A DNA stretch of 64,000 nucleotides from a bacterium (GTDB lineage Bacteria > Latescibacterota > Latescibacteria > Latescibacterales > Latescibacteraceae), in the NCBI GenBank assembly GCA_021372535.1, contig JAJFUH010000149.1, positions 10,803 to 74,802 on the forward strand. Reading direction: 5' to 3'. Numbering within the stretch: the first letter of the stretch is position 1; each line of letters begins with the position of its first letter. Both the position numbers and the translations under genes were made by a program. Below the pieces are notes generated by a model. It did not search any database. It saw only the letters and a program-made list of their open reading frames with translations, and was not told the origin of the DNA. Below are positions 7,368 to 24,870 of this stretch, one piece after another.

Positions 7368-7430
7368 GGCACACGCACCTCCCGCATACACTATCCGTAC
7401 GGAATTGATTATACATGGGATTACGGAGAA

Positions 7431-10795: not shown

Positions 10796-11142
10796 CCCTT
10801 CAACCTCCTGATCTGAAGAATGTCGAATGTTCCGTACTTTTCGTAGAGCCTGAGACAGATAGCGATAACCATGGCCGTTATCCCGAGACCGATCACTATC
10901 GAGGTCACAATAAGCGCCTGCGGAATCGGGTCGACGAAATTCGCCGACTCGACTGCGGCATAACGGGCGTCCGAAACGATCGGCGCCGTTCCGCCTGTCC
11001 TGTACCCTATGAGGATAAGGAGCAGGTTCGTGGCATACTCGATGATGAGGAGGCCGATGACTATCTTCACGAGATTCTTTTTCGCGATAATCCCGTAAAT
11101 ACCGAGTAACAGCAGTATCGTGCATAATATGTACGGAACCAT
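10792..11142 (-). CDS. MrpC / NuoK-like subunit
   Basis: 116 aa, three TM segments, MnhC-like (LIGLLIIEYATNLLL). Confidence 0.8.
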   Translation of the reverse strand: MVPYILCTILLLLGIYGIIAKKNLVKIVIGLLIIEYATNLLLILIGYRTGGTAPIVSDARYAAVESANFVDPIPQALIVTSIVIGLGITAMVIAICLRLYEKYGTFDILQIRRLKG

Positions 11143-11153: not shown

Positions 11154-11585
11154 CTACCGTTTATGTTCCAGACGGAACATAACAAGGGCTATAAAAACCG
11201 CGACGAGACATGCCGAAACCTTTATCCCGATCGCAATATTGCTCCACATCACGGTACCCCCGGAAATAAGCCTGAGCGGGGTGCCTCTCATAATGAAATT
11301 CGTGAAGAAAAATCCCCCGGAAAACCCGATGAGCGCGATTGAGAGAAATCCGAGCGCGCCGATCGAATCCCATGCCGAAAGCGCTTTCTCGCCCACGATA
11401 TCGAGGGCGGTCTTCTTCCCGAAGGCAAGAATAAGGAGAATAATCGCGCACGCGAGCATCACTCCGCCGGCAAATCCTCCGCCGGGAGTTATGTGGCCGT
11501 AGAGAACGATGTTCGCCGCGAACACGATAATGAAACCGAGCACGAGCCGGGTTATCGTTTTAACGATCAGTGTCATCCCGTTCAT
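11154..11585 (-). CDS. MrpB / MnhB-domain subunit
   Basis: 143 aa. HITPGGGFAGGV motif of the MnhB domain. Confidence 0.8.
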   Translation of the reverse strand: MNGMTLIVKTITRLVLGFIIVFAANIVLYGHITPGGGFAGGVMLACAIILLILAFGKKTALDIVGEKALSAWDSIGALGFLSIALIGFSGGFFFTNFIMRGTPLRLISGGTVMWSNIAIGIKVSACLVAVFIALVMFRLEHKR

Positions 11586-12111
11586 CGCTTATTCTGCCTT
11601 TCTTTCTGAGGATAACGAGCGCCCCGACAATGGAGACGAAAATCACCGTCGCCTCGCCGAGTGTATCATACGCCCTGAAATCCAAGAGAATCGCGGTCAC
11701 CAGATTCGCCGCCCGCGAAACGGAAAATCCGTCACGGATATACATTTCCGATACCCTGAAAACGGGGTTGCCAAATTCCGGCATTCCACGGTATGCCAGC
11801 GATGCAAACACGATGAATATGCCGAAAAATACCAGCCCCACCGCTGTCGAGAACACCTCGCCGTAACGGTAGCGGTGGGCAATGGTGACATCCTCGCGTT
11901 CGACAACGAGACGGAGGAGCATGATGAGCGCAACCACCTCGACAACCACCTGAACAATCGCCAGGTCGGGCGCGCCGAGTATCAGGAAAATGATCGAAAG
12001 GGCAAGCCCCATGGCGCCGACCGAGATTACGCTCGAAAGGAGGTCTTTCGTCTCGATGGCGATTATGGCGCCGATAATCATGAATGCTAGCAGACCGTAC
12101 AAGAGGATCAT
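11560..12111 (-). CDS. MrpA C-terminal-like subunit (DUF4040 / MbhD-MbhE type)
   Basis: 183 aa, multi-TM. Segments APDLAIVQVVVE and LLDFRAYDTLGEATV are typical of DUF4040/MnhB-like hydrogenase subunits. Confidence 0.7.
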   Translation of the reverse strand: MILLYGLLAFMIIGAIIAIETKDLLSSVISVGAMGLALSIIFLILGAPDLAIVQVVVEVVALIMLLRLVVEREDVTIAHRYRYGEVFSTAVGLVFFGIFIVFASLAYRGMPEFGNPVFRVSEMYIRDGFSVSRAANLVTAILLDFRAYDTLGEATVIFVSIVGALVILRKKGRISDERDDTDR

Positions 12112-12117: not shown

Positions 12118-13953
12118 TCACCTCACGAGAAAAAATATCAAAAATCCGAGCCCGGCTATTGCAAACGCCACATAAGTTGAAACAACACCATTATGAATCG
12201 ACTGGAGAATCCCGACAATCTTCATGCCGTACCTGCCGCCGAGAACATAGAGATCGTAAACACCCTCCTCAGCGTCCTTATACAGAACCTTCAGGGGCGA
12301 AAATGTCCGTATCGTCTCATAAAAACCGGTGCCGGGATACCTGAGCTCTTCGCTTCCGAACTGTTCGCCGCCCACAAAGATCGTGGTCTTCCGGGGCTTT
12401 ATCGCTGTGCTCATATAGTAGACTATTACACCGATCAGGAGCGCCAGAACGATCAGAAGCGTCGCAAGCGTCGGACTCCACAGCGCATGCGGTAGGAGTA
12501 TCGTGCCGGACACGGGTCCGAAATCGATACCTGCCGCCGGACCGACGAGATATCTGAGCGGGAGCTGTGCAAATACACCGAACAACACGCATATAACCGC
12601 AAGCACAACCATCGGTACAGCCATAGCCCATCCCGCAGGCTTCACCGAGTTAAGGCCCTCGGGCCGTTTCCCGAGAAAAACAGAGTGAATGACCTTGAAG
12701 AACGATGCGAGCGTGAGCGCGCTCCCGAACATGGCGGCGATAAGGAAAACAGGCTGTCCGGTTTCGATGGTTCCCTCGTAAATGAGCCATTTAGACGCAA
12801 AGCCGTTGAGGGGAGGAACGCCGGAAATGGCAAGCGCCGATACAAGCATCGCAGCGAAGGTCACGGGCATTACACGGGCAAGACCGCCCAATTCTTCGAG
12901 TTCGGTTGTTCCGGCACGCTTCTCGACCGCTCCCGTTCCGAGGAACAGACAGCACTTGTAGAGCGCGTTGTTGAGCATATGGAACAGCCCGCCCGCAACA
13001 CCGGCGGGGACTCCGGTCCCGATACCGAGAACCATGTAGCCGACCTGGCTGACCGCATGGAAGGCGAGCAGTTTCTTGAGATTGTGCTGAACGAGCGCCA
13101 TCATGACCGCGAGGATGATGGTGACAGCCCCGATACTGAGCAGAAGAAGCCTGAGCGGCCCGCTGAGCACAAACATGAAAAGCGATATCCGCGCAAGCAG
13201 GTAGATACCGAGCAGTTTGTCGAGACTCGCCGGAAGATAGGCCATGACACTTGTCGGAGCGCCCTCCGCCGCTTTCGGTATCCACGAATGCCCGGGCATC
13301 GCCCCTGCCTTGACGAGGGCGCCGGTAAGCAGAAGGATGTACAGCACGGTCATGAAACCGGATGTAACAGGGACGGAGTCGAAATCGCTGATCCGGAGCG
13401 TACCGAATGAATACCACGCCAGAATAACACCTAAAAGCAGGGCGCAGTCTGCAAATCCGACGATGACGAATGTTTTCCCGGCGGCTTCTCTCGATTCTTT
13501 TCCGCCCATGGTAATAAAGAAGAACAGGAGCATCGTGGTGACTTCCCAGCCGATGAGGAGAAGCACCAGATTATCGGCAAGCAGCGCGGCTGCAGTCGCC
13601 CCCGATGTCCAGAGAAGGTAAGCGTAATACTCGCGGTGGCGGTCGCTGTCGTTCATGAACCCGATCGAGTAAATCGCGATAAGGAGTGCGAATACCGAGG
13701 CGGCAAAAAGGATGAACCCGTTGAGACTGTCGACCCTCAGGTCGAAGGAAAACACAAAACTGCCAAGGCTGAACCACGGCCACGAAACAGCCACATATTC
13801 ACCGGCAAAGAAAACGACGCCCGCGTAATAAGCGGCAATAATCGTTCCGGCAAGCGCGACAATCTCACGCACCCGCTTCATCGCCGAGGGTACGAGCAAA
13901 ACGATAAACCCTGCGGCAATCGGAATTATAACCGGATATACAAGAGCATCCAT
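12118..13953 (-). CDS. NuoL / MrpA N-terminal / HycC-like antiporter subunit
   Basis: 611 aa, many TM segments. PGHSWIPKAAEGAPTSVMA and FHMLNNALYKCCLFL motifs. Confidence 0.85.
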   Translation of the reverse strand: MDALVYPVIIPIAAGFIVLLVPSAMKRVREIVALAGTIIAAYYAGVVFFAGEYVAVSWPWFSLGSFVFSFDLRVDSLNGFILFAASVFALLIAIYSIGFMNDSDRHREYYAYLLWTSGATAAALLADNLVLLLIGWEVTTMLLFFFITMGGKESREAAGKTFVIVGFADCALLLGVILAWYSFGTLRISDFDSVPVTSGFMTVLYILLLTGALVKAGAMPGHSWIPKAAEGAPTSVMAYLPASLDKLLGIYLLARISLFMFVLSGPLRLLLLSIGAVTIILAVMMALVQHNLKKLLAFHAVSQVGYMVLGIGTGVPAGVAGGLFHMLNNALYKCCLFLGTGAVEKRAGTTELEELGGLARVMPVTFAAMLVSALAISGVPPLNGFASKWLIYEGTIETGQPVFLIAAMFGSALTLASFFKVIHSVFLGKRPEGLNSVKPAGWAMAVPMVVLAVICVLFGVFAQLPLRYLVGPAAGIDFGPVSGTILLPHALWSPTLATLLIVLALLIGVIVYYMSTAIKPRKTTIFVGGEQFGSEELRYPGTGFYETIRTFSPLKVLYKDAEEGVYDLYVLGGRYGMKIVGILQSIHNGVVSTYVAFAIAGLGFLIFFLVR

Positions 13954-13954: not shown

Positions 13955-15190
13955 TCATGCCTTCTCTTTCATGAGGAGTTTTTTGACTGCCAGCTCGACC
14001 GGCGTCGGGGAACCGTAATCTTTTTTCAGACGGTCGGTCGCAGCCCGGGAACACTCGGTCAGCTCACGGCCCGACATGACGATGTTATCCGAGCCGCGCT
14101 CCAGAACCGCCATGCGCTCGGTACAACAGTAGCAGGGATCGACAGCGGCGGTGATGAGAGCCACATCGGCAATGGTGTGCCCGACACAGGTCGCCTTGAA
14201 CGACGGTATGTTGACATAGCTCGGCGCACGGATTTTGTGCCGTATCGGTGAATTGCCGCCGTCACCGCGAACATAGTGGAATACCTCTCCGCGCGGCGCT
14301 TCGGCGTGCCCGATGCCTTCTCCGGCGGGAACCGATTTTATGTGAGCATCGATGGGGCCTTCGGGCATGGCATCGAGGCACTGCTTGATAATCTTCGCCG
14401 CTTCGATAATCTCGAGAAGCCGGACAGCCGCTTTCCCGAAGACATCGCCGCTTTCCCATGTGATGACCTTCCAGTCGATACGGTCATACGCCGCATAAGG
14501 ATCGTCAGTCCTGATGTCATCGGGAATGCCGGAAGCGCGGACAGTCGGTCCCACAGTTCCGTATGCGATGGCATCTTCTTTCGTAAGAACGCCGATTCCT
14601 TTCGTCCGCGCATGGAGAACCGGATCGTCGAGGACAGCTCCGACAAGCATCTCCATCTCCCCGATAATTTTATCCATTTCGCGCTGCACCCAGGCGAAGT
14701 CATCGCTGTTGAGGTCGCGGCGGACACCACCCGGTTTCATCATGGCGTAGTGGTTACGGTTCCCGGTGAGCTTTTCACAGATATCGAGGATCGGCTCACG
14801 GTATTTCCACGCCCACATGAATACCGTATCATACCCGATAAAATGTCCCGCAAGACCGACCCAGAGGAGGTGGCTGTGAATGCGTTCGAGCTCGCAGATG
14901 ATGGTGCGGATATAGTGCGCACGATCGGGAACGGTGAATCCGCCGAGGTCCTCGACCGCCAGCACATACGCGATGGGATGCGATGTCGAGCATATCCCGC
15001 AGATGCGTTCGACGATAAACGTCGACTGGTCATAGGTTTTCAGCGTGCTCAGCTTTTCAATCCCCCGGTGCATGTAGCCGATACGGACGTCCACATCCAC
15101 AACTGTCTCGCCCTCAACGTAGAGCTTGAAGAATTCCGCTTCCTCGAGGAGCGGGTGGAACGGGCCGAGGGGTATGACGGTTCGCTTCAT
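13955..15190 (-). CDS. group 4 [NiFe]-hydrogenase large subunit (NuoD/HycE/MbhL-like)
   Basis: 411 aa. N-terminal RICGICSTSH and C-terminal DPCYCCTER motifs, so all four Ni-Fe cysteine ligands are present. Confidence 0.9.
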   Translation of the reverse strand: MKRTVIPLGPFHPLLEEAEFFKLYVEGETVVDVDVRIGYMHRGIEKLSTLKTYDQSTFIVERICGICSTSHPIAYVLAVEDLGGFTVPDRAHYIRTIICELERIHSHLLWVGLAGHFIGYDTVFMWAWKYREPILDICEKLTGNRNHYAMMKPGGVRRDLNSDDFAWVQREMDKIIGEMEMLVGAVLDDPVLHARTKGIGVLTKEDAIAYGTVGPTVRASGIPDDIRTDDPYAAYDRIDWKVITWESGDVFGKAAVRLLEIIEAAKIIKQCLDAMPEGPIDAHIKSVPAGEGIGHAEAPRGEVFHYVRGDGGNSPIRHKIRAPSYVNIPSFKATCVGHTIADVALITAAVDPCYCCTERMAVLERGSDNIVMSGRELTECSRAATDRLKKDYGSPTPVELAVKKLLMKEKA

Positions 15191-15639
15191 CAGTCAAACT
15201 CCTTGAAATCACGCCGTAACGGGTGAACGCCATCCGGCCAGTCATCGGCAAGAACGAGCCGTCTCGGATCGGGATGGTTTGTGAATACCACGCCTAAAAG
15301 ATCGTATATCTCGCGCTCAATCCAGATGGCTGCCGGCAGGAACATGCCTATGGACCCGATTTCGGGTGATGGTTTTTTTACCTTCGTTCGCACAGTGATC
15401 ATCCGGTGTTCCTGCGGGTACATGAAATGATAGAGAATCTCGATGCCGCTCCTCATGTCAACTCCCGATGCGGTAGCCAGCCGTCCTCCAAGATTCTCAT
15501 ACATGAAACGGCAGACCGCCGGAAGGTCGATAGAATTGACAGTTATATATACTCTGCGGTCGTTCCGCTCATGGATATCGACGAGGGTATCGCCGAATTT
15601 CTTCCGTATCGCTGACAGCGCAGTTTTTTCAGTCGTCAT
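15190..15639 (-). CDS. NuoC-like (30-kDa) hydrogenase subunit
   Basis: 149 aa. EREIYDLLGVVFTNHPD motif of the NuoC/HycE N-terminal domain. Shares one nucleotide (15190) with the large-subunit gene. Confidence 0.85.
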   Translation of the reverse strand: MTTEKTALSAIRKKFGDTLVDIHERNDRRVYITVNSIDLPAVCRFMYENLGGRLATASGVDMRSGIEILYHFMYPQEHRMITVRTKVKKPSPEIGSIGMFLPAAIWIEREIYDLLGVVFTNHPDPRRLVLADDWPDGVHPLRRDFKEFD

Positions 15640-15648: not shown

Positions 15649-16080
15649 CTACAGGCTCTTGAGCGCCTTCACAACACCAAGAATAATCGCCTCGGGCTTG
15701 GGCGGACAGCCGGGAACATAGGCTATGATCGCATTCGGGTCGATTTCGCGAACAACCTCGTCAAGCGGTCCCACACAGTTATAACTGTCCCGGAACATGG
15801 TCATCGAAAGCGCGCACGAGCCTATCCCGAACACTACACATGGTTTCGCCGTCTGCCGGTACAGCTCCCTGAACCGCGGGAGGACATGACGGTTGATCGA
15901 GCCGCTCACGAGAAGCGCATCGGCGTGTCGTGGGCTGCCCACGAGCTTGATGCCGAAACGCTCCACATCGAAACGAGGGGTCAGAACATCGAGTATTTCT
16001 ATATCGCAGTTGTTACAGGGCGACAGGGCAACATGGTACACCCACGGCGATTTTTTCAGACCCCACATGGTCAGACTCAT
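15649..16080 (-). CDS. NuoB-like hydrogenase small subunit (proximal 4Fe-4S)
   Basis: 143 aa. CNNCDIE, GSCALS and PGCPPKPE cysteine motifs. Confidence 0.9.
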   Translation of the reverse strand: MSLTMWGLKKSPWVYHVALSPCNNCDIEILDVLTPRFDVERFGIKLVGSPRHADALLVSGSINRHVLPRFRELYRQTAKPCVVFGIGSCALSMTMFRDSYNCVGPLDEVVREIDPNAIIAYVPGCPPKPEAIILGVVKALKSL

Positions 16081-16127: not shown

Positions 16128-17075
16128 TTACAATCCGTATATGGCCAGCACAAGGCCGCTGACCGCAAGCACGGTCACAGGTCCCCAGAAGAACTTCACC
16201 GCCTGATCGATTCGTACTCGTGGATTCGTGTTTCTGATCAGGACAACCAGCACAATGATCACTACATACTTCAGTATGCCCCACAGAACGGACACTCCAC
16301 CTAACTGTATGCCACCCATGAGCAGGGTTATCATGAAAAGCGGCATGATCGCCAGAAGGAGGGTGCGGGTAATCCTGATTATCGCAAGGGGCGGGCCCGA
16401 GTACTCGGTAATGGTTCCCCCCATGATTTCCTGCTCCGCTTCGGGAACATCGAATGGGACAAGCCCGAGCTTCGCCTGCGTTGAGAATAGAAGCACAAGA
16501 AAACCGATTACACCCGAAACGCTCCGGAGATACCATCCGCCTTCTATCTGGTTGGCAATGATGCCGCCGAGCCGGAAATCAAATCCGGATTTATAGATAA
16601 CTGTCGCTATTACAATAAGATATGGAAGCTCATATCCGAGCACGAGTTTCATCTCCCGTGATGCGCCTACAGCGGCAATGGGATTCCCGGATGCGCTTGC
16701 GCCGATGATAACCGCAACTGCGGGTATCACGAGCAAATATACGAGCACCACGATATCGCCAATAAAATCGCCATCCGGATTCATTAATGCATATCCCAAA
16801 AGCCCTGCGGCAAGAGCGGCCCCCGCGAGACCGAACAGCGGAGCTGCAAGAAATACGGTTCTGCCGGGACCATCGGGAACGAGCGTTTCCTTACCGAGCA
16901 GCTTGAGAATATCCGCAACCGGCTGAAACCACGGCGGCCCCACACGCGCCTGAATCCGTGCGGTTACCTTTCGGTCTATCCAGCTTGTCGCAAGCCCCAG
17001 AACGAGAACAAATGCGACAATCACGAGAAACGCCACAATATGAATTACCCCGGTAATGATCACATGAAACTCCAT
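16128..17075 (-). CDS. NuoH / HycD / MbhM-like membrane subunit
   Basis: 315 aa, about 8 TM segments. WIDRKVTARIQARVGP and PFDVPEAEQEI motifs. Confidence 0.9.
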   Translation of the reverse strand: MEFHVIITGVIHIVAFLVIVAFVLVLGLATSWIDRKVTARIQARVGPPWFQPVADILKLLGKETLVPDGPGRTVFLAAPLFGLAGAALAAGLLGYALMNPDGDFIGDIVVLVYLLVIPAVAVIIGASASGNPIAAVGASREMKLVLGYELPYLIVIATVIYKSGFDFRLGGIIANQIEGGWYLRSVSGVIGFLVLLFSTQAKLGLVPFDVPEAEQEIMGGTITEYSGPPLAIIRITRTLLLAIMPLFMITLLMGGIQLGGVSVLWGILKYVVIIVLVVLIRNTNPRVRIDQAVKFFWGPVTVLAVSGLVLAIYGL

Positions 17076-17144
17076 GACTCAGATTTCAAACATTCACTGC
17101 ATTATCATTAAAAACCGTACCATACACGTTACACACGACAGCCG

Positions 17145-17663
17145 CTATGGCCTTCTGATATATGTTCTGTATCCCTGCGCATGGGCGCCGAGCACGATCT
17201 CTTTTTCTTTGCCGTATGCATCACTCATTTCCTCGAACCGGAGCGCGCCGGTAGGGCATGTGGCGACACACGCCGGCTCCCTGCCCTCTTCGAGCCGTGA
17301 GGTACAGAGGTCGCATTTGCCGAGAGCAAAGCCGATGAGCTTCATTCCCTGGCTCAGAACTCCGAACGGGCACGCCAGTACGCAGCTCCTGCAGCCGGTA
17401 CACCGCGCCGGGTTCCTCCTTACCGTCCCGTCATCGTCACGGGTCATCGCCTCCCGTGGGCAGGCGGCGACACATGCTGGCTCCTCGCAGTGACGACATA
17501 CGACGGGCAGATTCCCGACTTTTTCAATAAAGGTGCTCTGGAGGGTTACCGTACCGAGGTGTACACGCTGGCAGGCAACCGAGTGCGCCTGACACCCTAT
17601 GCACCGGTCAAGATGGACGAACAGCCTCTTCACCACGCGATCCTTTCCTGTAATTTCACCCAC
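17145..17663 (-). CDS. HycB-like 4x[4Fe-4S] ferredoxin subunit
   Basis: 172 aa with four cluster motifs (CIGCQAHSVAC, CRHCEEPACVAACP, CTGCRSCVLACP, CDLC...CVATCP). Confidence 0.85.
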   Translation of the reverse strand: MGEITGKDRVVKRLFVHLDRCIGCQAHSVACQRVHLGTVTLQSTFIEKVGNLPVVCRHCEEPACVAACPREAMTRDDDGTVRRNPARCTGCRSCVLACPFGVLSQGMKLIGFALGKCDLCTSRLEEGREPACVATCPTGALRFEEMSDAYGKEKEIVLGAHAQGYRTYIRRP

Positions 17664-19057
17664 TCCATGACATCGGTCAGCGCCCCGTCACCATGCCTGA
17701 GCACCGTGGAAAACACCGCAGGCTCAGGGGCTTCCTTCTCCGCGGCATCAAGAAGAGCCTTCACTGTCTCACCGCTTAATCCTGTCCGCTGCCATTCCTG
17801 ACCGGGAGTACCGGGCGGCAGTTCACGCCCCATATATCGTGCGAGACGGCGGAGTATATCCCCATACGAAAGCGCCCCGCCTGGAGGATCGACCACAGGC
17901 CGCAGCTTCCGTCCATTATACGTGCCTTCCGTTTCAAGCCACAGGGTGGTTGGCAGCGTACAATCGGACACGGCGGTCGTTTTGTTATCAAACGGAGCCC
18001 CGGCAGCGACATACTCCGCTTTTTCGAGCACCGCTGCCACATCACGGCCGGGCATACTCCCGACAATATCTGCGCCGAGCACCAGCAGTACCTTGAGAGC
18101 GCCCCGCTTAACCTCATCGAGCAGTTCTTCCACCGATGCGATTTCCGGTAAAACATCGCATATGCCACGAGCATTACCGTATGTGGTCAGGCACATAAGG
18201 CGCTTGTCGTCGCCCGCAGCCGAAACGACTGCGGCGGCGAGAAAAGCGGTCACCGGATCCTGCGTATCGAGGAGCATAACCGCCGAGGGTGTTTCAATAA
18301 ACTTCTTTGCGGTGCCGACAATGTAAGGGTTTTGAGGATACGGCCGCTCTTTCCTGACTACAGCCTTCCATTCGGGTCCACCCACGCCCGACTCTTCAGC
18401 AACGACACGAAGCAGGTCCGCAAGCGTTTTTCTCTCCGGGCCGGGAATGTGGAGATTCGCGAACCGCGCTGCGGTGTTCCGTTTTTTCGAGATAACGGCT
18501 AAAAGACTGCCTCTCCGTCCATACCGGGTGTTGAGAACCTGACCGGCAATCACCGGCCCGACCTCGAACGGGTCTCCGACAGCGATGATACAGTCTGCCT
18601 CACCGGTGTCGTGCGGTTGAGCCGGAGCACCGGTATATCCCACACCCGCCAGGGCGCGATACACCGCATCATCATTGGTTGAGAAATTCACGGCGATATG
18701 GTTTTCACCGAGGAAAGCATTGCCGAAACTCAGGGCTGTCAGGATGTCCTCTATCGATGCGTCCCCGCTCACGATAAGTCCCGCGGAAGACCCATCCGCG
18801 CGCTGTTTCATGTTCGCGGCAATCATCTCGAAAGCGGTATCCCGTGATATCGTTTTTCCACCGGCGCAGGGTTCGGTGAGACGGTTAGGATGGTTGAGCA
18901 GTTCGAGAATGAAATTCCCTTTGCTGCAGAGGTGTCCTTCACCGACGGCATCACCGGTGTCATATTCGAGATTCACCGCTTCACCATAGAGCGTCTCCAC
19001 GATGAACCCGCATCCCAGTGAACAGAGAAGGCATGTACTCTTATGTTTTTCTCGCAT
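17630..19057 (-). CDS. truncated molybdopterin-oxidoreductase-family (FdhH-like) protein, probably non-catalytic
   Basis: 475 aa. N-terminal MopB 4Fe-4S motif CLLCSLGC...HLCSKG and distal LPTTLWLETEGTYNG motif. No C-terminal MGD-binding domain, and no Cys/Sec at the expected ligand position by my by-eye alignment. Confidence 0.7.
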   Translation of the reverse strand: MREKHKSTCLLCSLGCGFIVETLYGEAVNLEYDTGDAVGEGHLCSKGNFILELLNHPNRLTEPCAGGKTISRDTAFEMIAANMKQRADGSSAGLIVSGDASIEDILTALSFGNAFLGENHIAVNFSTNDDAVYRALAGVGYTGAPAQPHDTGEADCIIAVGDPFEVGPVIAGQVLNTRYGRRGSLLAVISKKRNTAARFANLHIPGPERKTLADLLRVVAEESGVGGPEWKAVVRKERPYPQNPYIVGTAKKFIETPSAVMLLDTQDPVTAFLAAAVVSAAGDDKRLMCLTTYGNARGICDVLPEIASVEELLDEVKRGALKVLLVLGADIVGSMPGRDVAAVLEKAEYVAAGAPFDNKTTAVSDCTLPTTLWLETEGTYNGRKLRPVVDPPGGALSYGDILRRLARYMGRELPPGTPGQEWQRTGLSGETVKALLDAAEKEAPEPAVFSTVLRHGDGALTDVMEWVKLQERIAW

Positions 19058-19078
19058 CTGTTTGCCCGCCTGAGACGA

Positions 19079-19903
19079 TCATATTCCGAACACGTTCGGA
19101 TAATCCTTTATAAGCGCGTAATTGATATCGGGGCCGTCCTTGCAGAGATAGTACGGACCTACATTGCACCGCCCGCATTTCCCCGTCCCGCAGCTCATGC
19201 GGCGGTTCATCGAGAGATATAACTGTTCCGGTTTGTACCCGATATCGAGCAGCTTTTTCGTGACAAACTTGAGCATGATCTCCGGCCCGCACACCACGGC
19301 GTAACTGTCGGGAATGGTGATATCGATATCATCGAGCACCGTGGTCACCACACCGACATGGCCATCCCACCCCGGAGCACCGGCATCCACTGTGGGAGTG
19401 AAGCTCACCCGGTCTATCGCCGACCACTCGCTGTACGAATCCCTGTATACGAGATCTGCCGGAGATTTTGCCCCGTATTTTATGGACACACGCTTGAACT
19501 TTTCCATATTCTCGAACAGCACGTATAAAAGCGACCGCAACGGCGCGAGTCCGCATCCCCCGCCAACAACAAGCACTTCACTGCCCTCGAGCTTGTCGAG
19601 CGGATACCCCTTGCCGAACGGCCCGCGGAGTCCGACCGGGTCGCCTGCCTTGAGTTTGTGGAGCTCCTCCGTCACCCTGCCCATTTTCAGGATGGTGAAA
19701 TCGAGTGTTTCGAGCCTGCTTGGTGATGAGGAAGGAGTAAAAGGCGCCTCTCCGACTCCCGGCATGGTCAGCTGCATGAACTGGCCCGACCTGAAGGGGA
19801 TTTGCTGTTCCGGTTTCACAATAATGGTTTTAATGGTCGGGGTTTCATCGATAACCCGCACCACCGTTCCACTAGCCGGCATATAGGGATTGATATCACT
19901 CAT
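19079..19903 (-). CDS. AsrB / HydG(gamma)-like FAD/NAD(P)-binding 2Fe-2S oxidoreductase
   Basis: 274 aa. FNR-like fold signatures (RSGQFMQL, VVGGGCGLAPLRSL) and C-terminal CGTGKCGRCN. Confidence 0.8.
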   Translation of the reverse strand: MSDINPYMPASGTVVRVIDETPTIKTIIVKPEQQIPFRSGQFMQLTMPGVGEAPFTPSSSPSRLETLDFTILKMGRVTEELHKLKAGDPVGLRGPFGKGYPLDKLEGSEVLVVGGGCGLAPLRSLLYVLFENMEKFKRVSIKYGAKSPADLVYRDSYSEWSAIDRVSFTPTVDAGAPGWDGHVGVVTTVLDDIDITIPDSYAVVCGPEIMLKFVTKKLLDIGYKPEQLYLSMNRRMSCGTGKCGRCNVGPYYLCKDGPDINYALIKDYPNVFGI

Positions 19904-20978
19904 GCTTTGTCCCGGTTTCTATCGTTTCAGTGTCGAGTGCTTTGAGCACTTTTCTCATGTCGATTTTACCCATGCATCCTTCGATACACCGCCCGCAGCC
20001 CGTACAGGCCTCGAATCCGAAATTTTTCGGGTAATACTCGAGCTTGTGCAGATAACGGTGACGGAAACGCTCCATGAGACCGAGGCGGGGCGAGCTGCCT
20101 CCGGCCATCCGTGAAAAACCGGCATAAATACATACATCCCATTCCTTGACCCGCTCGAATCCACCCCTGTTGCTTTTCTGGTCGTACAGGAGAAAACAGT
20201 GGCAGGTCGGGCAGGAAAAAAGACACGCCCCGCATTCGACGCATGTGCGTACATGCCCGAACCAGGAATCGCTTTCACGCTGAATCGCGAGGAGTTCGGG
20301 AAAACTCTTCGAGAGTGAGTAATCGCCGTTCTGCCGCTCAACGATACGGGTTGTTTCCGAACGCTGATCATCCCGTGCGCGGAGCAGGTTTTCTCCGGGC
20401 GCCGAAAAAAGCGGGGAATTCTTCCTCACTACCTCGCTGCCTTTTTCGGAACCGGTTTCGATAAGGTATCCCCCTTCGACAGCGCTCATATTGAGATCGA
20501 AGCCTGTCTTCGGATAAGGAGCATTCCCAAGCTGCGTACAGAAACAGGCCGACCGCGGATTTACACAGTCAGCGGTTATGATGAATGTATTATTTCTCCG
20601 CTCACGGTAAAAGATATCGGTAAAGGCTTCATCGAGGAACACGGCATCGAGCGATCGCAGTGAAACGGCATCACAGGCCGCCGCACCCACAATAATGGTC
20701 TTTTCCCGCGCGAAATCCGGGGCAGGCTGATTCCCGGAAGGATACTCGGCCACCTTCACCCGGCCTTTGAACAGAAACGACTTGATCGGCTGTGCGGGAC
20801 GGTAACCACGGAAGATAAACGGTTTTCCGGGAGACCAGGGCTCGTAGAAATAGGACTCTTCACCCTCACGGCTCAGTGCGGGATAAGGCGCGAATACCCG
20901 AGCCCCGGAATTTAATGTCTCAAGGAACCGCCCGAAATCGCTTTCACTGATAAACGATACCCGATTGTTATCGTTCAT
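19896..20978 (-). CDS. AsrA / HydB(beta)-like 4Fe-4S protein
   Basis: 360 aa. CVECGACLFSCPTCHC and CTGCGRCIEGC motifs. Overlaps the downstream gene by 8 nt. Confidence 0.75.
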   Translation of the reverse strand: MNDNNRVSFISESDFGRFLETLNSGARVFAPYPALSREGEESYFYEPWSPGKPFIFRGYRPAQPIKSFLFKGRVKVAEYPSGNQPAPDFAREKTIIVGAAACDAVSLRSLDAVFLDEAFTDIFYRERRNNTFIITADCVNPRSACFCTQLGNAPYPKTGFDLNMSAVEGGYLIETGSEKGSEVVRKNSPLFSAPGENLLRARDDQRSETTRIVERQNGDYSLSKSFPELLAIQRESDSWFGHVRTCVECGACLFSCPTCHCFLLYDQKSNRGGFERVKEWDVCIYAGFSRMAGGSSPRLGLMERFRHRYLHKLEYYPKNFGFEACTGCGRCIEGCMGKIDMRKVLKALDTETIETGTKHE

Positions 20979-20999
20979 TGTCTTCCTCGTGAGTTGTAC

Positions 21000-22139
21000 T
21001 TATCTGTTTTCCCCGCATGACTGTTTTTTCGGCAGATGTACGGTAAAGCTTGTTCCAACATCGATCTGGCTTTCCACGCTGATATAGCCTTTGTGCGCAT
21101 CGACTATTTTTTTCACGATGGCAAGTCCCAGACCCGTACCCGTATCGCCGGTCAGTTGCCGTGTCTTTTCGCTCCGTGTCCGGACCCTGAAAAATTCATC
21201 GAATATGAACGGCAGGCTTTCCTGTGGTATACCGATCCCGGTATCCGCGATCTGTATCTGTATACAATCGCCCACGTCACATGCCTTCGTTGTTATTTTT
21301 CCGCCCTCACGGTTATATTTAATGGCATTGGAGTACAGATTCATGAACAGGTGGACAAGCGCTTCGCCGTTACCATTAAACATCGGCAGATCACCGGGCA
21401 TAACGAATTCGAGGGCAATTTTCTTTTCATCAGCCTGAACGCGGACAAGCTCGAGTGATTCGTCCAGAATCGACCGGAGCTGCACTTCATCCATTTTTTC
21501 AAGGATTGTCGAATTCTGTATTCTGGCCATGCTGAGCCACTCGTTGACTAGAGAAAGGAGCCATTCGATACGCCGTCTGCACTGCGAGAGAATTTCGCCC
21601 TGTTTCTGCTGGAGCTCGCCGGCAATCCCTTCGAGAAGAACCTCAATATATTGTTCCACAGCAACAAGCGGACTCCGCATCTCATGAGTAATGATTGAAA
21701 CAAAATTTTCCTTCAACCGTGCGTTTTCCTCCTGAAGACGGAGCGTCTCGACAAGGAGATGCCGTTTTTCCAGCCCGCGCCGGACAATCATCCGCAATTC
21801 ATCAGGGGTAAAAGGTTTCGGCAGAAAATCTGAGGCGCCGAGCTTCATTGCCTCTACCGCCGATTCAACCGTCGCATACCCCGTTATAACAACCGTCACG
21901 ATCGTTTTATCGATTGCGGCAATTTCCTGGAGAATATCGATTCCGCTTTTCCCGGGCATTTTGAGGTCAAGGAGCACGAGGTCCGGCCTGGCTTCTCTGA
22001 CAAGACTCATTCCGCGCTCACCATTAGACGCCGAAAGAATCGCATATCCTCCGCGGCTGAGAATCTGTGTGCATGAATCATGCATGGTTTCCTCATCATC
22101 GATGATGAGAATGACCGGCGACTTTTTTTTCCCATTCAT
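21000..22139 (-). CDS. hybrid response-regulator receiver / histidine kinase
   Basis: 379 aa. N-terminal receiver (IIDDEE, VLLDLKMPG, LPKPF), coiled linker, H-box ITHEMRSPL, then HATPase motifs (NAIKYN, DTGIGI, GTGLGLAI). Confidence 0.85.
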   Translation of the reverse strand: MNGKKKSPVILIIDDEETMHDSCTQILSRGGYAILSASNGERGMSLVREARPDLVLLDLKMPGKSGIDILQEIAAIDKTIVTVVITGYATVESAVEAMKLGASDFLPKPFTPDELRMIVRRGLEKRHLLVETLRLQEENARLKENFVSIITHEMRSPLVAVEQYIEVLLEGIAGELQQKQGEILSQCRRRIEWLLSLVNEWLSMARIQNSTILEKMDEVQLRSILDESLELVRVQADEKKIALEFVMPGDLPMFNGNGEALVHLFMNLYSNAIKYNREGGKITTKACDVGDCIQIQIADTGIGIPQESLPFIFDEFFRVRTRSEKTRQLTGDTGTGLGLAIVKKIVDAHKGYISVESQIDVGTSFTVHLPKKQSCGENR

Positions 22140-22294
22140 GCTTTTTTCAGGTGCACCGTTAAAAAAGCTTTATGCTATGATCCCGGAATCGAACGTTCCG
22201 GTTCACACCTGCATGAGTGCAGGATATCCGTGTCGAACAGTCAATTTTATATTAGGAAACTAACAATGAAGAAAAACGATGTTTTATGTTGATA

Positions 22295-22309
22295 GCAAAT
22301 TTAATGCCC
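22295..22309 (-). promoter_or_regulatory. candidate sigma-54 (-24/-12) promoter
   Basis: The minus strand reads GGGCATTAAATTTGCT. GG and GC are at the consensus spacing (TGGCACG-N4-TTGCW) and TTGCT is an exact -12 match. It lies about 155 nt upstream of the first operon gene and directly downstream of a sigma-54 activator gene. Confidence 0.45.
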
Positions 22310-22462: not shown

Positions 22463-23824
22463 CTACTGTGTGTTGATGTCGTACCGGTTTATCTTGTTTC
22501 TCAATGTCTTACGGTCTATACCAAGAACAGAAGCCGTATGGGTAATGTTATACCGGCATTTTCTGAGGGTATTTTCAATATGTACGCGTTCGACATCATC
22601 AAGTTTTGTCAGCTTTTCTTCACGTCTGAGGGATACTGCCCCGCCGGAAAAAACATCCCCGTTTATATAGAAGTGCCGCACTTCTTTCTCATCGCAGAGA
22701 GCGGCCGTACGCTCCATGACATTCTCCAGCTCCCTGACATTGCCGGGCCAGTCATATGACATCATTTCTTTCATGATCCTGTCGGATATCCGTTCCGGAA
22801 GCTGACCGGGCTTCTTCTTCCGGAAGTTTTCGAGAAAATAGTTTGCCAGCACAGGAATATCATCACGGCGCTCACGGAGCGGGGGCAGATGAATGGAAAT
22901 AACATTGAGTCTGAAATAGAGATCTTCCCGAAAATTACCTTCTTTTATTTCATCATCGAGGGAACGGTTTGTGGCCGCAATGATTCTGACATCGACCGGA
23001 ATCATCTGGGAGCTTCCGACCCGTGTGATCTCATGCTCCTGTACTGCCCGTAAAAGCTTGCTCTGCATATGATAGCTCATATTGGCTATTTCATCGAAGA
23101 ACAGCGTTCCCTTGTTTGCCATCTCGAATCGTCCGATCCGGTTATAAAACGCGCCGGTGAACGATCCCCGGACATGTCCGAAAAGCTCGCTTTCGATGAG
23201 TGTATCGGAGAGGCCGCCGGAATCGACCGTGACAAAATTACCGGTCCGCCTCTCGCTGCAGGAATGCAGGGCACGGGCGGTGAGCTCCTTGCCGGTTCCC
23301 GTTTCACCCGTTATAAGCACCGAACAGTCGGACTGGGCCACTTTCTTGATATACTCTTTCAGCCGCGATATCACCGGGCTCTGGGTAATAATGGCATCGG
23401 TTCCCCTGATCGATACCAGTTTCTGCGTATCCAGTTTTTTTAATCCGTCACGGTTGTGTTTCTCAAGGGCCTTGGTGACAACGGTGCGGAGCATGTTGGG
23501 AGTAAACGGTTTCGGTATAAAATCATAAGCGCCCATTTTCAGCACCTTGACCGCCCATTCGACCGTAGGATAGCCTGTCACGACGATAACCGCCGTTTCG
23601 GGGCTTTTTTCACGGATCATCCGCAGAATTTCCAGCCCGTTTATATCGGGCAGTTTCAGATCGAGGATTATGGCATCGAACGAGGACTCCCTGAGGTGGG
23701 TAAGCCCTATGGCGCCATTTTCGGAGAGCCAGACATCACATCCCTTCCGGGAGAGTATCTGGAAACATGAATCCCGCATGACCGGTTCATCATCGATGAC
23801 AAGGATTTTAAACGGCATATTCAT
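22463..23824 (-). CDS. sigma-54-dependent response regulator (NtrC/ZraR family)
   Basis: 453 aa from ATG 23824 (AAGGAGGAG RBS; ATGA overlap with the kinase stop). Receiver domain, AAA+ domain ([14 protein letters not shown]-like SFTGAF, ESELFGH) and a C-terminal HTH. The track ORF's upstream extension to 23929 overlaps the kinase gene. Confidence 0.9.
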
Positions 23825-24870
23825 CCGGTCTCCTCCTTGACAACCAGACGAACCGTGAAAACAGCTCCTCCCCCGTTCCGGTTCTGCACCATGACCGTGC
23901 CGCCGTGACGCTCGATAATGCCATAGCATACAGCCAGTCCGAGTCCGGTGCCGTGTCCCTTCGTTTTTGTCGTAAAGAACGGATCGAATATGCGATCCAT
24001 GTGCTCGGCAGGAATACCGGGGCCGGTGTCCTCGAAAACTATCTCGTTCATCGGAGTATTATCGGGTGCATCATGGATATGCCTGCTCGTGATGGTGAGT
24101 TCTCCGGACCCGTTCATCGCTTCCGCGGCATTCCGTATGATATTCTCAAACACTTCCTGAATCTGCGACGCATCCACGAGCACGCACGGCAGATCCTCAC
24201 CTAAGTGTTCGGTGACGGTAATATGCTCGAAGAGAGGCATTCTCTTCATGTTGTTGAGCGCCTCGGTAACAATGATATTCACATCACAGGGATCGAGCTG
24301 GGGATTGGCCTGGCGGGCGAAATCGAGAAGGCTTTTAACGATGTTCTTGCAGCGGTTGGATTCTCTGATGATTTTGGTAATGTTGGAATACCGCGGATCA
24401 CTCTGATCGGTATCCTCGAGAAGAAGGTGAGAATAGACAATGATTCCGGTAAGCGGGTTGTTGATCTCATGAGCCACTCCCGCGGAAAGCTGGCCGAGCA
24501 TCGCCAGACGCTTGTTTTCGGCGGCGAGCTTCGAGAGTTCCTTGAGCTTTTCATTCTGATCCTGCACGGTTCCCGGTCGGTTCACTTCCCTCGCGGTACG
24601 GACGCTGAGGTCATGTATGGGATCATACATACGCTGCAATTCGGGAAGTTCCTCGCCGGACCGGGAAGGTACTACGGTATTTTTTTTTCTTCCCGGCAAG
24701 AGTATCAGATAAAAATACCCTGCGGAAATGAAAAACAAGAATATAACCACAATCGCTACGCCGGCTATATTGCCCCGGACAAACGACCGGCTGCCAAAGC
24801 GCCCGATAATAATTCCCAGCGCCATGAGCATGAGATAAAGGTAGAGCCTGCTTTCCCGGAAAATTTTCAT
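23821..24870 (-). CDS. membrane sensor histidine kinase
   Basis: 349 aa. Two N-terminal TM segments, H-box AHEINNPLTGI, and HATPase motifs (NAAEAM, DTGPGI, GTGLGLAV). Confidence 0.85.
   Translation of the reverse strand: MKIFRESRLYLYLMLMALGIIIGRFGSRSFVRGNIAGVAIVVIFLFFISAGYFYLILLPGRKKNTVVPSRSGEELPELQRMYDPIHDLSVRTAREVNRPGTVQDQNEKLKELSKLAAENKRLAMLGQLSAGVAHEINNPLTGIIVYSHLLLEDTDQSDPRYSNITKIIRESNRCKNIVKSLLDFARQANPQLDPCDVNIIVTEALNNMKRMPLFEHITVTEHLGEDLPCVLVDASQIQEVFENIIRNAAEAMNGSGELTITSRHIHDAPDNTPMNEIVFEDTGPGIPAEHMDRIFDPFFTTKTKGHGTGLGLAVCYGIIERHGGTVMVQNRNGGGAVFTVRLVVKEETG

What the first reader, a model, noticed from the sequence alone, without database searches (positions are those of the whole stretch)
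17145..20978. Unusual four-gene electron-input module on a membrane-bound FHL/Mrp-type [NiFe]-hydrogenase
Four genes sit immediately upstream of, and co-directional with, the NuoH/B/C/D-like hydrogenase core. Junctions are an 8-nt overlap, a 21-nt gap, a 34-nt overlap and a 69-nt gap.
- A 360-aa AsrA/HydB-like polyferredoxin.
- A 274-aa AsrB/HydG-like FAD/NAD(P)-binding 2Fe-2S protein (VVGGGCGLAPLRSL, CGTGKCGRCN).
- A 475-aa truncated FdhH-like protein.
- A HycB-like ferredoxin.
AsrAB/HydBG-type pairs are known as the pyridine-nucleotide-linked modules of anaerobic sulfite reductase and of the cytoplasmic sulfhydrogenase of Pyrococcus. The characterised donors of Mrp-linked or FHL-type group 4 hydrogenases are ferredoxin, formate or CO.
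Inference: this complex may couple NAD(P)H/NAD(P)+ to H+/H2 with ion translocation. NADH-driven H2 formation is endergonic, so the Mrp module could supply or harvest ion-motive force. That would be complex-I-like logic assembled from different parts. I cannot tell without searches whether this arrangement has been described.
Basis: partly seen in the sequence, partly recalled or inferred. Interest (0 to 1): 0.7.

Follow-up and report, generated by a model that had tools for sequence, protein, structure and literature searches.

The report
Hun hydrogenase operon: NAD(P)H-type input module
The four genes are real and form the electron-input end of a 'Hun' membrane hydrogenase/Mrp antiporter operon, which is already described in the literature but has never been tested biochemically; the sequence evidence favours NAD(P)H as its redox partner over formate or the ferredoxin proposed in print.

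Summary
On the minus strand, four genes sit directly upstream of a complete group-4 [NiFe]-hydrogenase/Mrp operon: a 360-aa HydB/AsrA-like, a 274-aa HydG/AsrB-like, a 475-aa truncated FDH-like and a 172-aa HycB-like protein. The stated junctions are correct.

The arrangement is not new.
- Glass et al. 2021 named this operon 'Hun' (HunA-P). They noted an optional molybdopterin-domain gene between hunB and hunC, and a CGIC/CYCC large-subunit signature, which this window has.
- Matheus Carnevali et al. 2019 described the same cluster in Saganbacteria as 'enigmatic'.
- The donor has only been predicted: ferredoxin, or ferredoxin/NADH.

I found the same gene order in 21 other loci from at least six phyla.

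Evidence on the redox partner:
- HunA and HunB are closest to the beta and gamma subunits of NADPH-dependent Pyrococcus sulfhydrogenase I.
- The FAD, NAD(P) and 2Fe-2S motifs are invariant in 27 HunB homologues.
- The FDH-like protein lacks the Sec/Cys ligand and the C-terminal cap domain, and is absent from 4 of 5 newly fetched sister operons. It is best read as a NuoG-like scaffold, not an enzyme.
- Two relatives carry Rex plus Rex operators just before hunA.

Best reading: an NAD(P)H-linked, ion-coupled hydrogenase (confidence 0.55). It is a new member of a known but uncharacterised kind.

The parts
23821..24870 (-). Sensor histidine kinase (HisKA + HATPase_c); first gene of the upstream regulatory cassette
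   Evidence: Pfam. A homologous cassette lies upstream of hun in L001, L005, L007, L019 and L022.
22463..23929 (-). Sigma-54-dependent response regulator (Response_reg + Sigma54_activat + HTH_8)
   Evidence: Pfam. Conserved next to hun operons.
22294..22309 (-). Sigma-54-like -24/-12 element GGGCATTAAATTTGCT in the 323-nt gap upstream of the hybrid kinase gene (weak evidence)
   Evidence: 2 mismatches, and window-wide hit counts are not above chance. A similar GGCATTAGTTTTGCA lies at the equivalent place in L005.
21000..22139 (-). Hybrid receiver-histidine kinase (Response_reg + HisKA + HATPase_c). It ends 21 nt before hunA and is probably the first gene of the transcript.
   Evidence: Pfam; sequence. 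Same position in L001, L005-L008, L011, L022 and the P0027 contig.
19896..20978 (-). HunA: HydB/AsrA-like Fe-S protein, 360 aa
   Evidence: Fer4_22 7.6e-29. ShyB 2.3e-47, HydB 2.5e-41 and AsrA 1.9e-35, all below the equivalog cut-offs. SHI beta 9nez_B 5.8e-40, with all 15 aligned Cys conserved.
19079..19903 (-). HunB: HydG/AsrB-like FAD / NAD(P)H / [2Fe-2S] flavoprotein, 274 aa
   Evidence: Pfam. SHI gamma 9nez_C 2.5e-51. AF2 model pLDDT 86, with best Foldseek hit NADPH-bound SHI 9nf0_C at TMq 0.87. Cofactor motifs are invariant in 27 homologues.
17630..19057 (-). 'FdhX': truncated, probably cofactor-less formate-dehydrogenase-like protein with one [4Fe-4S] site (C9, C12, C16, C44), 475 aa
   Evidence: Sec/Cys position is N, following His is D; no domain IV.
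17145..17663 (-). HunC: HycB/CooF-like ferredoxin with four cluster motifs, 172 aa. Motif I is CIGCQAHSVAC, with His in place of the third Cys.
   Evidence: Fer4_11 2.1e-22. HycB 7z0s_B and other FDH/Nrf beta subunits. Alignment.
16128..17075 (-). HunD: NuoH-like membrane subunit
   Evidence: PF00146 7.5e-64.
15649..16080 (-). HunE: NuoB-like hydrogenase small subunit
   Evidence: PF01058 1.4e-21. 80-92% identical across most loci.
15190..15639 (-). HunF: NuoC-like subunit
   Evidence: PF00329 2.2e-28.
13955..15190 (-). HunG: group-4 [NiFe]-hydrogenase large subunit with CGIC...H and DPCYCC motifs
   Evidence: MbhL 6cfw_L 292 bits and HycE 7z0s_E 290 bits. CYCC signature, matching Glass et al..
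12118..13953 (-). HunH: MrpA/NuoL-like antiporter subunit
   Evidence: Proton_antipo_M 2.3e-56.
11560..12111 (-). HunI: MbhD/MbhE-like subunit
11154..11585 (-). HunJ: MnhB-like subunit
10792..11142 (-). HunK: NuoK/MrpC-like subunit
9293..10795 (-). HunL: MrpD/NuoN-like antiporter subunit. The ATG at 10795 is the likely start; the 630-aa TTG ORF listed mechanically is an over-call.
   Evidence: Orthologues are 495-515 aa.
8805..9296 (-). HunM: MnhE-like subunit
8527..8808 (-). HunN: MrpF-like subunit (93 aa). The overlapping 8540-8887 ORF is spurious.
   Evidence: PF04066 2e-17.
8199..8543 (-). HunO: MrpG-like subunit
7431..8042 (-). HunP: NuoI/HycF-like 2x[4Fe-4S] subunit
   Evidence: PRK12387 formate hydrogenlyase Fe-S subunit, 1.2e-29.
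6903..7391 (-). HycI-type hydrogenase maturation protease
   Evidence: PF01750. Same position in L012 and L017-L021; in L022 it is adjacent but on the opposite strand.
6450..6824 (-). Stand-alone response-regulator receiver protein
   Evidence: PF00072.
5971..6348 (-). HypA nickel metallochaperone
   Evidence: PF01155.

Best explanation
Region 17145-20978 encodes the soluble electron-input (or output) module of a Hun-type complex. Hun is a group-4 [NiFe]-hydrogenase fused to a full Mrp antiporter module.

Proposed electron path:
1. NAD(P)H reduces the FAD of HunB, and electrons move to its [2Fe-2S] cluster.
2. They pass to the Fe-S clusters of HunA.
3. They cross the single [4Fe-4S] of the FDH-derived scaffold FdhX.
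4. They run through the four clusters of HunC.
5. They reach HunP (NuoI-like), then HunE (NuoB-like), then the NiFe site of HunG.

H+/H2 turnover at HunG is coupled through HunD and the Mrp subunits to H+/Na+ movement. The reaction should be reversible. At low H2, NAD(P)H oxidation could build an ion gradient. At high H2, the gradient could drive H2 formation, or H2 could reduce NAD(P)+.

What is shown: gene content, cofactor motifs, the closest structural relatives, the degeneracy and dispensability of FdhX, conserved synteny, and Rex control in two relatives.

What is inferred: the order of carriers, the direction of flow, the ion coupling, and the NADH-versus-NADPH preference. On the last point, the invariant Arg/Lys in YGA[R/K] leans towards NADPH, as in SHI gamma.
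For: 1. HunB and HunA are full-length homologues of the gamma and beta subunits of NADPH-dependent P. furiosus sulfhydrogenase I.
- Sequence matches: 9nez_C 2.5e-51 and 9nez_B 5.8e-40.
- The HunB model matches NADPH-bound 9nf0_C best, at TMq 0.87.
- All 15 aligned Cys of SHI beta are kept in HunA.

2. The HunB cofactor motifs are invariant in 27 homologues of 62-82% identity and kept across phyla. They are PFTPSS, GGGxGxAPLR, YGA[R/K], CGP and four [2Fe-2S] Cys.

3. FdhX is not a formate dehydrogenase.
- The Sec/Cys position is N and the following His is D.
- The family consensus there is FATGDD.
- Domain IV is absent.
- The AF2 model (pLDDT 87) matches FDH/Nap and also the cofactor-less NuoG, StnC/NfnC and HydA domains.
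- Four of the five additional LSU relatives fetched (64-68% identity) have HunA-HunB-HunC with no FdhX.

4. HunAB is present upstream of every locus fetched that extends that far. There is no break-like signal at the junctions.

5. The NADH/NAD+ sensor Rex sits directly upstream of hunA in two relatives.
- L015 (Margulisiibacteriota) has perfect operators TTGTGAAATAATTCACAA before rex and about 17 nt before hunA.
- L020 has Rex at 242 bits and the box TTGTGATTAAATTCACGA 31 nt before hunA.

6. Bird et al. 2019 report co-transcription of the hydrogenase with the adjacent oxidoreductase in Atribacteria.
Against: - There are no biochemical data for any Hun complex in the searched library.
- The paper that named Hun predicts ferredoxin as the donor.
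- NADH -> H2 is endergonic under standard conditions, so the direction depends on untested physiology.
- This window has no Rex gene or Rex box. It uses a sigma-54 two-component cassette whose signal is unknown.
- Rex regulons also include enzymes that do not use NADH.
- Subunit contacts were not modelled, so the position of FdhX in the chain is a guess.
- HunA/HunB score below the NCBIfam equivalog cut-offs for both sulfhydrogenase and Asr.
Confidence: 0.55

Rival explanations
1. Ferredoxin-dependent Mbh-like hydrogenase, the published prediction for Hun. Reduced ferredoxin would donate to HunABC, which act only as an Fe-S wire to the NiFe site, and H2 evolution would pump ions.
For: - Glass et al. 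2021 propose this by analogy to Asr, and HydDB places HunG in group 4g, 'predicted ferredoxin-coupled'.
- The organisms are fermenters that make reduced ferredoxin, and Ace Lake MAG papers assume the same for 4g+Mrp enzymes.
- The large subunit is as close to ferredoxin-dependent MbhL as to HycE.
Against: - It does not explain an invariant FAD/NAD(P)-binding flavoprotein in every operon.
- Mbh takes ferredoxin without any such module.
- The closest relatives of HunAB are the NADPH-binding half of SHI.
- Rex operators lie before hunA in two relatives.
Confidence: 0.2
2. Dual-donor or redox-balancing complex. Both ferredoxin and NAD(P)H/NAD(P)+ connect to the same Fe-S chain. The enzyme would then work as an ion-coupled Fd:NAD(P)+ oxidoreductase and hydrogenase, or would confurcate electrons to H2.
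For: - Bird et al. [quoted passage not shown]
- The long chain of surface-exposed clusters in HunC and FdhX offers possible ferredoxin docking sites.
- HdrA and other flavoprotein genes are adjacent in some loci.
Against: - No recognised bifurcating flavin site is present: no HydB/NuoF-type FMN, NfnB, EtfAB or HdrA within the operon. HunB is an ordinary FNR-family flavoprotein.
- There is no direct evidence for a ferredoxin site.
Confidence: 0.12
3. Sulfur-linked enzyme. HunAB would act as a sulfur/polysulfide (or sulfite) reductase module, giving a membrane-bound 'sulfhydrogenase' that passes electrons from H2 or the chain to sulfur compounds.
For: - Homology to SHI beta/gamma and to AsrA/AsrB.
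- Bird et al. mention 'and/or reduce sulfur compounds'.
Against: - No AsrC/siroheme subunit is present in the operon. Every gene from 5971 to 24870 is otherwise assigned.
- AsrA/AsrB scores are below the equivalog cut-offs.
- No sulfur-handling genes are conserved beside hun in the 22 loci (window plus 21).
Confidence: 0.07
4. True formate hydrogenlyase. The 475-aa FDH-like protein would oxidise formate and feed HunC, as FdhF feeds HycB in E. coli FHL.
For: - HMMs name it formate dehydrogenase alpha.
- Its best PDB sequence hits are FDHs.
- The FDH + HycB + NuoI/B/C/D layout mirrors FHL.
- Some genome papers have drawn 'FdhH + Mbh' this way.
Against: - The Sec/Cys and His catalytic residues are replaced.
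- The cap domain IV is missing.
- Its TIGR01591 score is 96 bits against a cut-off of 666.
- The gene is absent from four of the five additional sister operons fetched.
- Matheus Carnevali et al. could not classify it as an FDH by phylogeny.
Confidence: 0.03

Closest known systems
Hun supercomplex (Glass et al. 2021, bioRxiv 10.1101/536078 / Environ Microbiol): a 16-subunit Ni-Fe hydrogenase-Na+/H+ antiporter operon of Atribacteria, Firmicutes, Omnitrophica, Elusimicrobia and Bacteroidetes MAGs and of cultured Kosmotoga
   Same: - The gene order is identical: AsrA-like, AsrB-like, Fe-S protein, NuoH, NuoB, NuoC, large subunit, eight Mrp-type genes, NuoI-like.
- The large subunit carries the CGIC/CYCC signature.
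[quoted passage not shown]
   Different: - The host lineage is new for Hun: Latescibacterota-like, with the best relative Ca. Latescibacter anaerobius.
- HunC has a His in cluster motif I.
- A sigma-54/hybrid-kinase cassette lies upstream.
- My reading of the donor (NAD(P)H) differs from their prediction (ferredoxin).
'Enigmatic' Mrp-Mbh-type group 4 hydrogenase of Saganbacteria RX5A (Matheus Carnevali et al. 2019, PMC6349859, Suppl. Note 5 and Fig. 3e)
   Same: It has the same four-gene module (asrA-like, asrB-like, unclassifiable molybdopterin oxidoreductase, cooF-like) before the hydrogenase and Mrp genes. Saganbacteria, Margulisiibacteriota and WOR-1 loci fetched here share the order.
   Different: - Only 25-28% FdhX identity and 60-65% large-subunit identity to the window.
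- Those lineages have a canonical all-Cys HunC motif I.
- In L015 the operon is under Rex control.
Pyrococcus furiosus soluble sulfhydrogenase I (group 3b; PDB 9nez/9nf0), beta and gamma subunits
   Same: HunA and HunB are full-length homologues. They share the Cys pattern, the FAD, NAD(P) and [2Fe-2S] motifs, and the fold.
   Different: The partner hydrogenase is a membrane-bound group-4 enzyme with an Mrp module, not a cytoplasmic group-3b alpha/delta dimer. Scores are below the NCBIfam equivalog cut-offs.
E. coli formate hydrogenlyase FHL-1 (PDB 7z0s/7z0t)
   Same: The peripheral-arm layout is the same: FDH-fold protein + HycB-like + HycF/NuoI-like + HycG/NuoB-like + HycE-like large subunit.
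   Different: The FDH-fold protein is catalytically dead and truncated. NuoC and the large subunit are separate proteins. A full Mrp module and HunAB are added.
Respiratory complex I, NuoG/Nqo3 C-terminal domain
   Same: Both have a cofactor-less formate-dehydrogenase-fold domain in the peripheral arm, between an NAD(P)H dehydrogenase module and the NuoI/B/D module (Foldseek hits 7z7r_G and 7awt_G, TMq about 0.7).
   Different: No NuoE/NuoF/FMN module is present. The terminal site is still a NiFe hydrogenase rather than a quinone pocket. FdhX is a separate polypeptide with no N-terminal [FeFe]-hydrogenase-like domain.
P. furiosus Mbh (group 4d; PDB 6cfw)
   Same: Mrp-linked group-4 hydrogenase. 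MbhD/E, MnhB, MrpD/E/F/G-type and NuoH/B/C/D/I-type subunits are all present.
   Different: Mbh has no dedicated soluble input module and takes ferredoxin directly.

Membership tests
Hun complex (Glass et al. 2021) | AsrA-like and AsrB-like genes (HunAB) immediately upstream of and co-directional with the hydrogenase core | tested here: met
   19896-20978 and 19079-19903 on the minus strand.
Hun complex (Glass et al. 2021) | Large-subunit metal-site motifs CGIC (L1) and CYCC (L2) | tested here: met
   ERICGICSTSH and DPCYCC. DPCYCC in the window and in 17 of the 20 other loci that contain the LSU gene; DPCYSC in the other 3.
Hun complex (Glass et al. 2021) | 16-gene order: HunC Fe-S, NuoH, NuoB, NuoC, LSU, eight Mrp-type genes, terminal NuoI-like gene | tested here: met
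Hun complex (Glass et al. 2021) | Optional 4Fe-4S molybdopterin-domain protein between HunB and HunC | tested here: met
   17630-19057.
Hun complex (Glass et al. 2021) | HydDB class 4g but phylogenetically apart from other 4g sequences | not testable with these tools
   HydDB is not available here. The only data are roughly equal scores to MbhL and HycE.
Formate hydrogenlyase (group 4a/4b with catalytic FDH) | FDH subunit with Sec/Cys Mo/W ligand, adjacent His, and the four-domain bis-PGD fold | tested here: not met
   Ligand position is N, the His is D. Domain IV is absent. TIGR01591 scores 96 bits against a cut-off of 666.
Formate hydrogenlyase (group 4a/4b with catalytic FDH) | HycB-type four-cluster ferredoxin linking FDH to the HycF/NuoI-like subunit | tested here: met
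   Fer4_11, four cluster motifs, hit to 7z0s_B.
Group 3b sulfhydrogenase | Beta and gamma subunits (Fe-S protein; FAD/NAD(P)H/[2Fe-2S] protein) | tested here: inconclusive
   Clear homology, but scores are far below the NCBIfam equivalog cut-offs (162 vs 690; 181 vs 600).
Group 3b sulfhydrogenase | Cytoplasmic group-3b large and small hydrogenase subunits | tested here: not met
   The large subunit is NuoD-type group 4: Complex1_49kDa 3.2e-70, with MbhL and HycE as best PDB hits.
Anaerobic sulfite reductase AsrABC | AsrC siroheme catalytic subunit encoded with AsrA and AsrB | tested here: not met
   No such gene in the operon; all genes from 5971 to 24870 are otherwise assigned. The rest of the window was only partly scanned.
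Anaerobic sulfite reductase AsrABC | AsrA/AsrB equivalog-level similarity | tested here: not met
   TIGR02910 scores 122.7 against a cut-off of 323; TIGR02911 scores 203 against 288.6.
Respiratory complex I | NuoE/NuoF/NuoG N-module, and a NuoD that lacks NiFe ligands | tested here: not met
   No NuoE/F genes are present, and the large subunit keeps both Cys pairs.

The most novel reading that the evidence does not exclude
Hun would be a reversible, ion-translocating NAD(P)H:H+ oxidoreductase, working like complex I but with protons in place of quinone. The FdhX-containing subclade would preserve, or independently replay, the step in which a formate hydrogenlyase-like ancestor lost its formate dehydrogenase chemistry and kept the dead enzyme as the scaffold joining a pyridine-nucleotide module to the hydrogenase arm, as NuoG does in complex I. 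The series from long FdhX forms (domain IV kept) to short forms (lost) to operons with no FdhX would then record that decay.
Probability: 0.4. Interest if true: 0.75.

Novelty: new member of a known kind. Interest (0 to 1): 0.4.

Why it matters
No group-4 hydrogenase has been shown to use a pyridine nucleotide. The characterised donors are ferredoxin, formate and CO.

If Hun couples NAD(P)H to H2 with ion translocation, fermenters and syntrophs in anoxic sediments would have a route to dispose of NAD(P)H as H2, driven by or feeding the membrane potential. These lineages include Atribacteria, Latescibacterota, Planctomycetota, Omnitrophota and Saganbacteria. Energy budgets drawn for these abundant uncultured groups would change.

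It would also give a second, independent example of the complex-I design, bearing on how the N-module and NuoG arose.

For this scan the practical message is narrower. The locus is a good Latescibacterota-type example of an operon that is already named. The open question is biochemical, not genomic.

Tried and rejected
- Exact-sequence lookup of the window's large subunit found nothing on record.
- The formate hydrogenlyase reading was rejected on catalytic residues, domain content and dispensability.
- The Asr (sulfite reductase) reading was rejected: no AsrC, and sub-threshold scores.
- A Rex box was searched for in the window itself and none was found. The Rex argument therefore rests on relatives only.
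- A sigma-54 promoter scan gave a plausibly placed site, but the window-wide count (13) is below the shuffle mean (23). It is only a hint.
- The sigma-70 and terminator scan showed nothing at the junctions and counts near chance.
- Literature searches for a cryo-EM paper on SHI and for any follow-up using the Hun names returned nothing usable. The Latescibacteria genome paper does not mention hydrogenases.
- The neighbour-joining tree of large subunits is crude: midpoint-rooted, no support values. I use it only to say that short-FdhX operons cluster together.

Full report
**1. What is there**

The finding's four ORFs lie on the minus strand exactly as stated:
- 19896-20978, 360 aa
- 19079-19903, 274 aa
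- 17630-19057, 475 aa
- 17145-17663, 172 aa, GTG start

The coordinates give the reported 8-nt overlap, 21-nt gap, 34-nt overlap and 69-nt gap. Both quoted peptide motifs are present.

- The first protein has Fer4_22, with ShyB, HydB and AsrA as best families.
- The second has FAD_binding_6, NAD_binding_1 and DHODB_Fe-S_bind.
- The third has Molybdop_Fe4S4 and part of the Molybdopterin domain, but no Molydop_binding domain.
- The fourth has Fer4_11.

A complete operon follows in the same direction:
- NuoH-, NuoB- and NuoC-like genes.
- A [NiFe] large subunit with CGIC...H and DPCYCC.
- An MrpA/NuoL-like gene, then MbhD/E, MnhB, NuoK-like, MrpD, MnhE, MrpF, MrpG and a NuoI-like gene.
- Then HycI, a receiver protein and HypA.

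Two mechanical ORF calls need correcting. MrpD starts at the ATG at 10795, not at the 630-aa TTG ORF. MrpF is 8527-8808, not 8540-8887.

A hybrid receiver-kinase gene ends 21 nt before the first of the four genes. It is preceded by a sigma-54 activator and a sensor kinase.

**2. Is it more than chance?**

The 475-aa protein defines a sharp family. There are 52 clusters of 344-486 aa (nearly all 460-486) at 39-58% identity. Scores then drop from above 300 bits to about 50 bits for ordinary 680-740-aa formate dehydrogenases.

Every relative whose context I could read has the same gene order. A scan of species-representative genomes found the order in several lineages:
- Candidatus Latescibacter anaerobius, the closest named relative
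- Latescibacterota and Planctomycetota MAGs
- A Dehalococcoidia MAG
- Saganbacteria, Margulisiibacteriota and WOR-1

Five further large-subunit relatives at 64-68% identity all carry the first two genes.

No terminator-like or promoter-like site lies in the junction gaps.

**3. It has been described**

Matheus Carnevali et al. 2019 called the Saganbacteria version an 'enigmatic' group 4 hydrogenase. They listed Mrp subunits, a molybdopterin oxidoreductase that phylogeny could not classify as a formate dehydrogenase, cooF, asrA and asrB. They gave the electron donors as unknown.

Glass et al. 2021 named the operon Hun.
- They describe 16 subunits. HunAB are the Asr-like pair, HunC is the Fe-S protein, HunG is the large subunit and HunP is the NuoI-like subunit.
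- They report it in Atribacteria, Firmicutes, Omnitrophica, Elusimicrobia and Bacteroidetes MAGs and in cultured Kosmotoga.
- HydDB calls HunG group 4g, though it is distant from other 4g sequences.
- HunG has a CGIC/CYCC signature.
- They predict ferredoxin as the donor.

Bird et al. 2019 saw the hydrogenase co-transcribed with the adjacent oxidoreductase in Atribacteria. [quoted passage not shown]

The window's large subunit has DPCYCC, as do 17 of the 20 other loci that contain the gene. The locus is therefore a member of Hun, in its FdhX-containing form. I found no biochemical follow-up in the library.

**4. The two Asr-like proteins**

Their closest solved relatives are the beta and gamma subunits of NADPH-dependent Pyrococcus furiosus sulfhydrogenase I.
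- HunA matches 9nez_B at 5.8e-40 over residues 16-341. All 15 aligned cysteines are conserved.
- HunB matches 9nez_C at 2.5e-51 over residues 4-270.

An AlphaFold model of HunB (pLDDT 86) superposes best on the NADPH-bound SHI gamma subunit, at TMq 0.87.

In 27 HunB homologues the following are invariant:
- the flavin motif PFTPSS
- the dinucleotide loop GGGxGxAPLR
- CGP
- the four [2Fe-2S] cysteines

The residue after YGA is always Arg (20 sequences) or Lys (7). It aligns with the Arg of NADPH-specific SHI gamma and with Ala in NAD-dependent PyrK. I take this as a lean towards NADPH, not a proof.

**5. The FDH-like protein**

Its four [4Fe-4S] cysteines are invariant. In the HMMER alignment to a Sec/Cys formate dehydrogenase, however, the ligand position is Asn and the next, normally His, is Asp. 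The family consensus there is FATGDD.

The C-terminal cap domain is missing in the 460-486-aa forms. Longer relatives of 550-620 aa, including the Dehalococcoidia one, keep that domain but also lack the ligand Cys.

The model (pLDDT 87) matches formate dehydrogenases and Nap at TMq about 0.75. It also matches the cofactor-less domains of NuoG, StnC/NfnC and HydA of HydABCSL.

Four of the five extra sister operons go HunA-HunB-HunC with no such gene. A crude tree puts the short-FdhX operons together.

I conclude that FdhX is a degenerate scaffold with one cluster and is not a formate-oxidising enzyme. Residual cofactor binding is not strictly excluded.

**6. Regulation**

In the Margulisiibacteriota locus L015, a Rex gene lies directly upstream. 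Two perfect operators, TTGTGAAATAATTCACAA, are the only zero-mismatch hits in 17 kb. One lies before rex and one about 17 nt before hunA.

In L020, Rex scores 242 bits and is followed by TTGTGATTAAATTCACGA, 31 nt before hunA.

Rex senses NADH/NAD+, so in these relatives expression tracks the pyridine-nucleotide pool.

The window has no Rex box. It uses the sigma-54 cassette, and a weak -24/-12-like element lies at 22294-22309.

**7. Mechanism**

The best-supported model is an electron chain that starts at NAD(P)H and HunB and runs through HunA, FdhX, HunC, HunP and HunE to the NiFe site. Proton reduction there is coupled to ion movement through HunD and the Mrp subunits. The reaction would be reversible, with direction set by H2 partial pressure.

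Established redox potentials make NADH-to-H2 uphill at 1 atm H2. At the low H2 levels of syntrophic sediments it becomes neutral or downhill. The Mrp module could therefore either drive or harvest the reaction.

Content, motifs, homology, synteny and Rex sites are shown. Carrier order, direction, ion coupling and nucleotide preference are inferred.

Confidence that this is Hun is about 0.95. Confidence in NAD(P)H as the physiological partner is 0.55.

**8. Verdict**

The arrangement itself is already described, named and widespread. This locus is a new member of a known but uncharacterised kind, and I score interest at 0.4.

Noticed in passing
window 17571-17603 (-), HunC residues 21-31; alignment of loci L004-L017: HunC cluster motif I reads CIGCQAHSVAC, with His where the third Cys normally sits. 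This holds in the window and all 7 Latescibacterota/Planctomycetota-clade loci in the alignment. The Dehalococcoidia, Saganbacteria and Margulisiibacteriota versions have the canonical Cys. A His-ligated [4Fe-4S] would resemble entry/exit clusters such as N5 of NuoG.
   Followed up: partly
L015 7394-7411 and 8087-8104; L020 4991-5626 and 5780-5797: A Rex repressor gene lies directly upstream of hunA in two unrelated lineages. L015 has two perfect operators (TTGTGAAATAATTCACAA), and L020 has a 2-mismatch one.
   Followed up: yes
L019 5336-6808: HunA is fused to an N-terminal response-regulator receiver domain (490 aa). In the window and many loci, a hybrid receiver-kinase gene abuts hunA instead. 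This hints at direct phosphorylation-dependent control of the enzyme and not only of transcription.
   Followed up: no
L012 1554-3350 (Dehalococcoidia MAG); P0201-P0245: Longer FdhX relatives (550-620 aa) keep the C-terminal cap domain but also lack a Cys/Sec ligand. They look like intermediates between real FDHs and the 475-aa form.
   Followed up: partly
L012, L019, L022 large subunits: The L2 motif is DPCYSC instead of the Hun signature DPCYCC. The third Cys of CYCC is therefore not universal in the family.
   Followed up: no
window 22294-22309 (-): A sigma-54-like element, GGGCATTAAATTTGCT, lies about 155 nt upstream of the hybrid kinase start. L005 has a similar element. The count of such matches in the window is not above chance.
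   Followed up: partly
window 6450-6824 (-): A stand-alone receiver-domain protein is encoded between HycI and HypA, inside the hydrogenase maturation tail of the operon.
   Followed up: no
window 25366-32618 (+): A CusCBA-like heavy-metal RND efflux system runs divergently from the regulatory cassette. It comprises an outer-membrane factor, a membrane-fusion protein with a heavy-metal-binding domain and DUF3347, and a 1300-aa AcrB-family pump.
   Followed up: no
window 1074-2648 (-), 37086-43669: Several polysaccharide-degradation and secretion genes are present: GHL10, DUF3160 with a type-IX secretion sorting tail, a heparinase II/III-like protein and a sulfatase-modifying enzyme. They fit a Latescibacterota-type polymer degrader.
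   Followed up: no
L019 18690-20639; L018 18549-20771: An HdrA2-like flavoprotein (754 bits) or another FAD oxidoreductase gene lies immediately after HycI in some hun loci.
   Followed up: no
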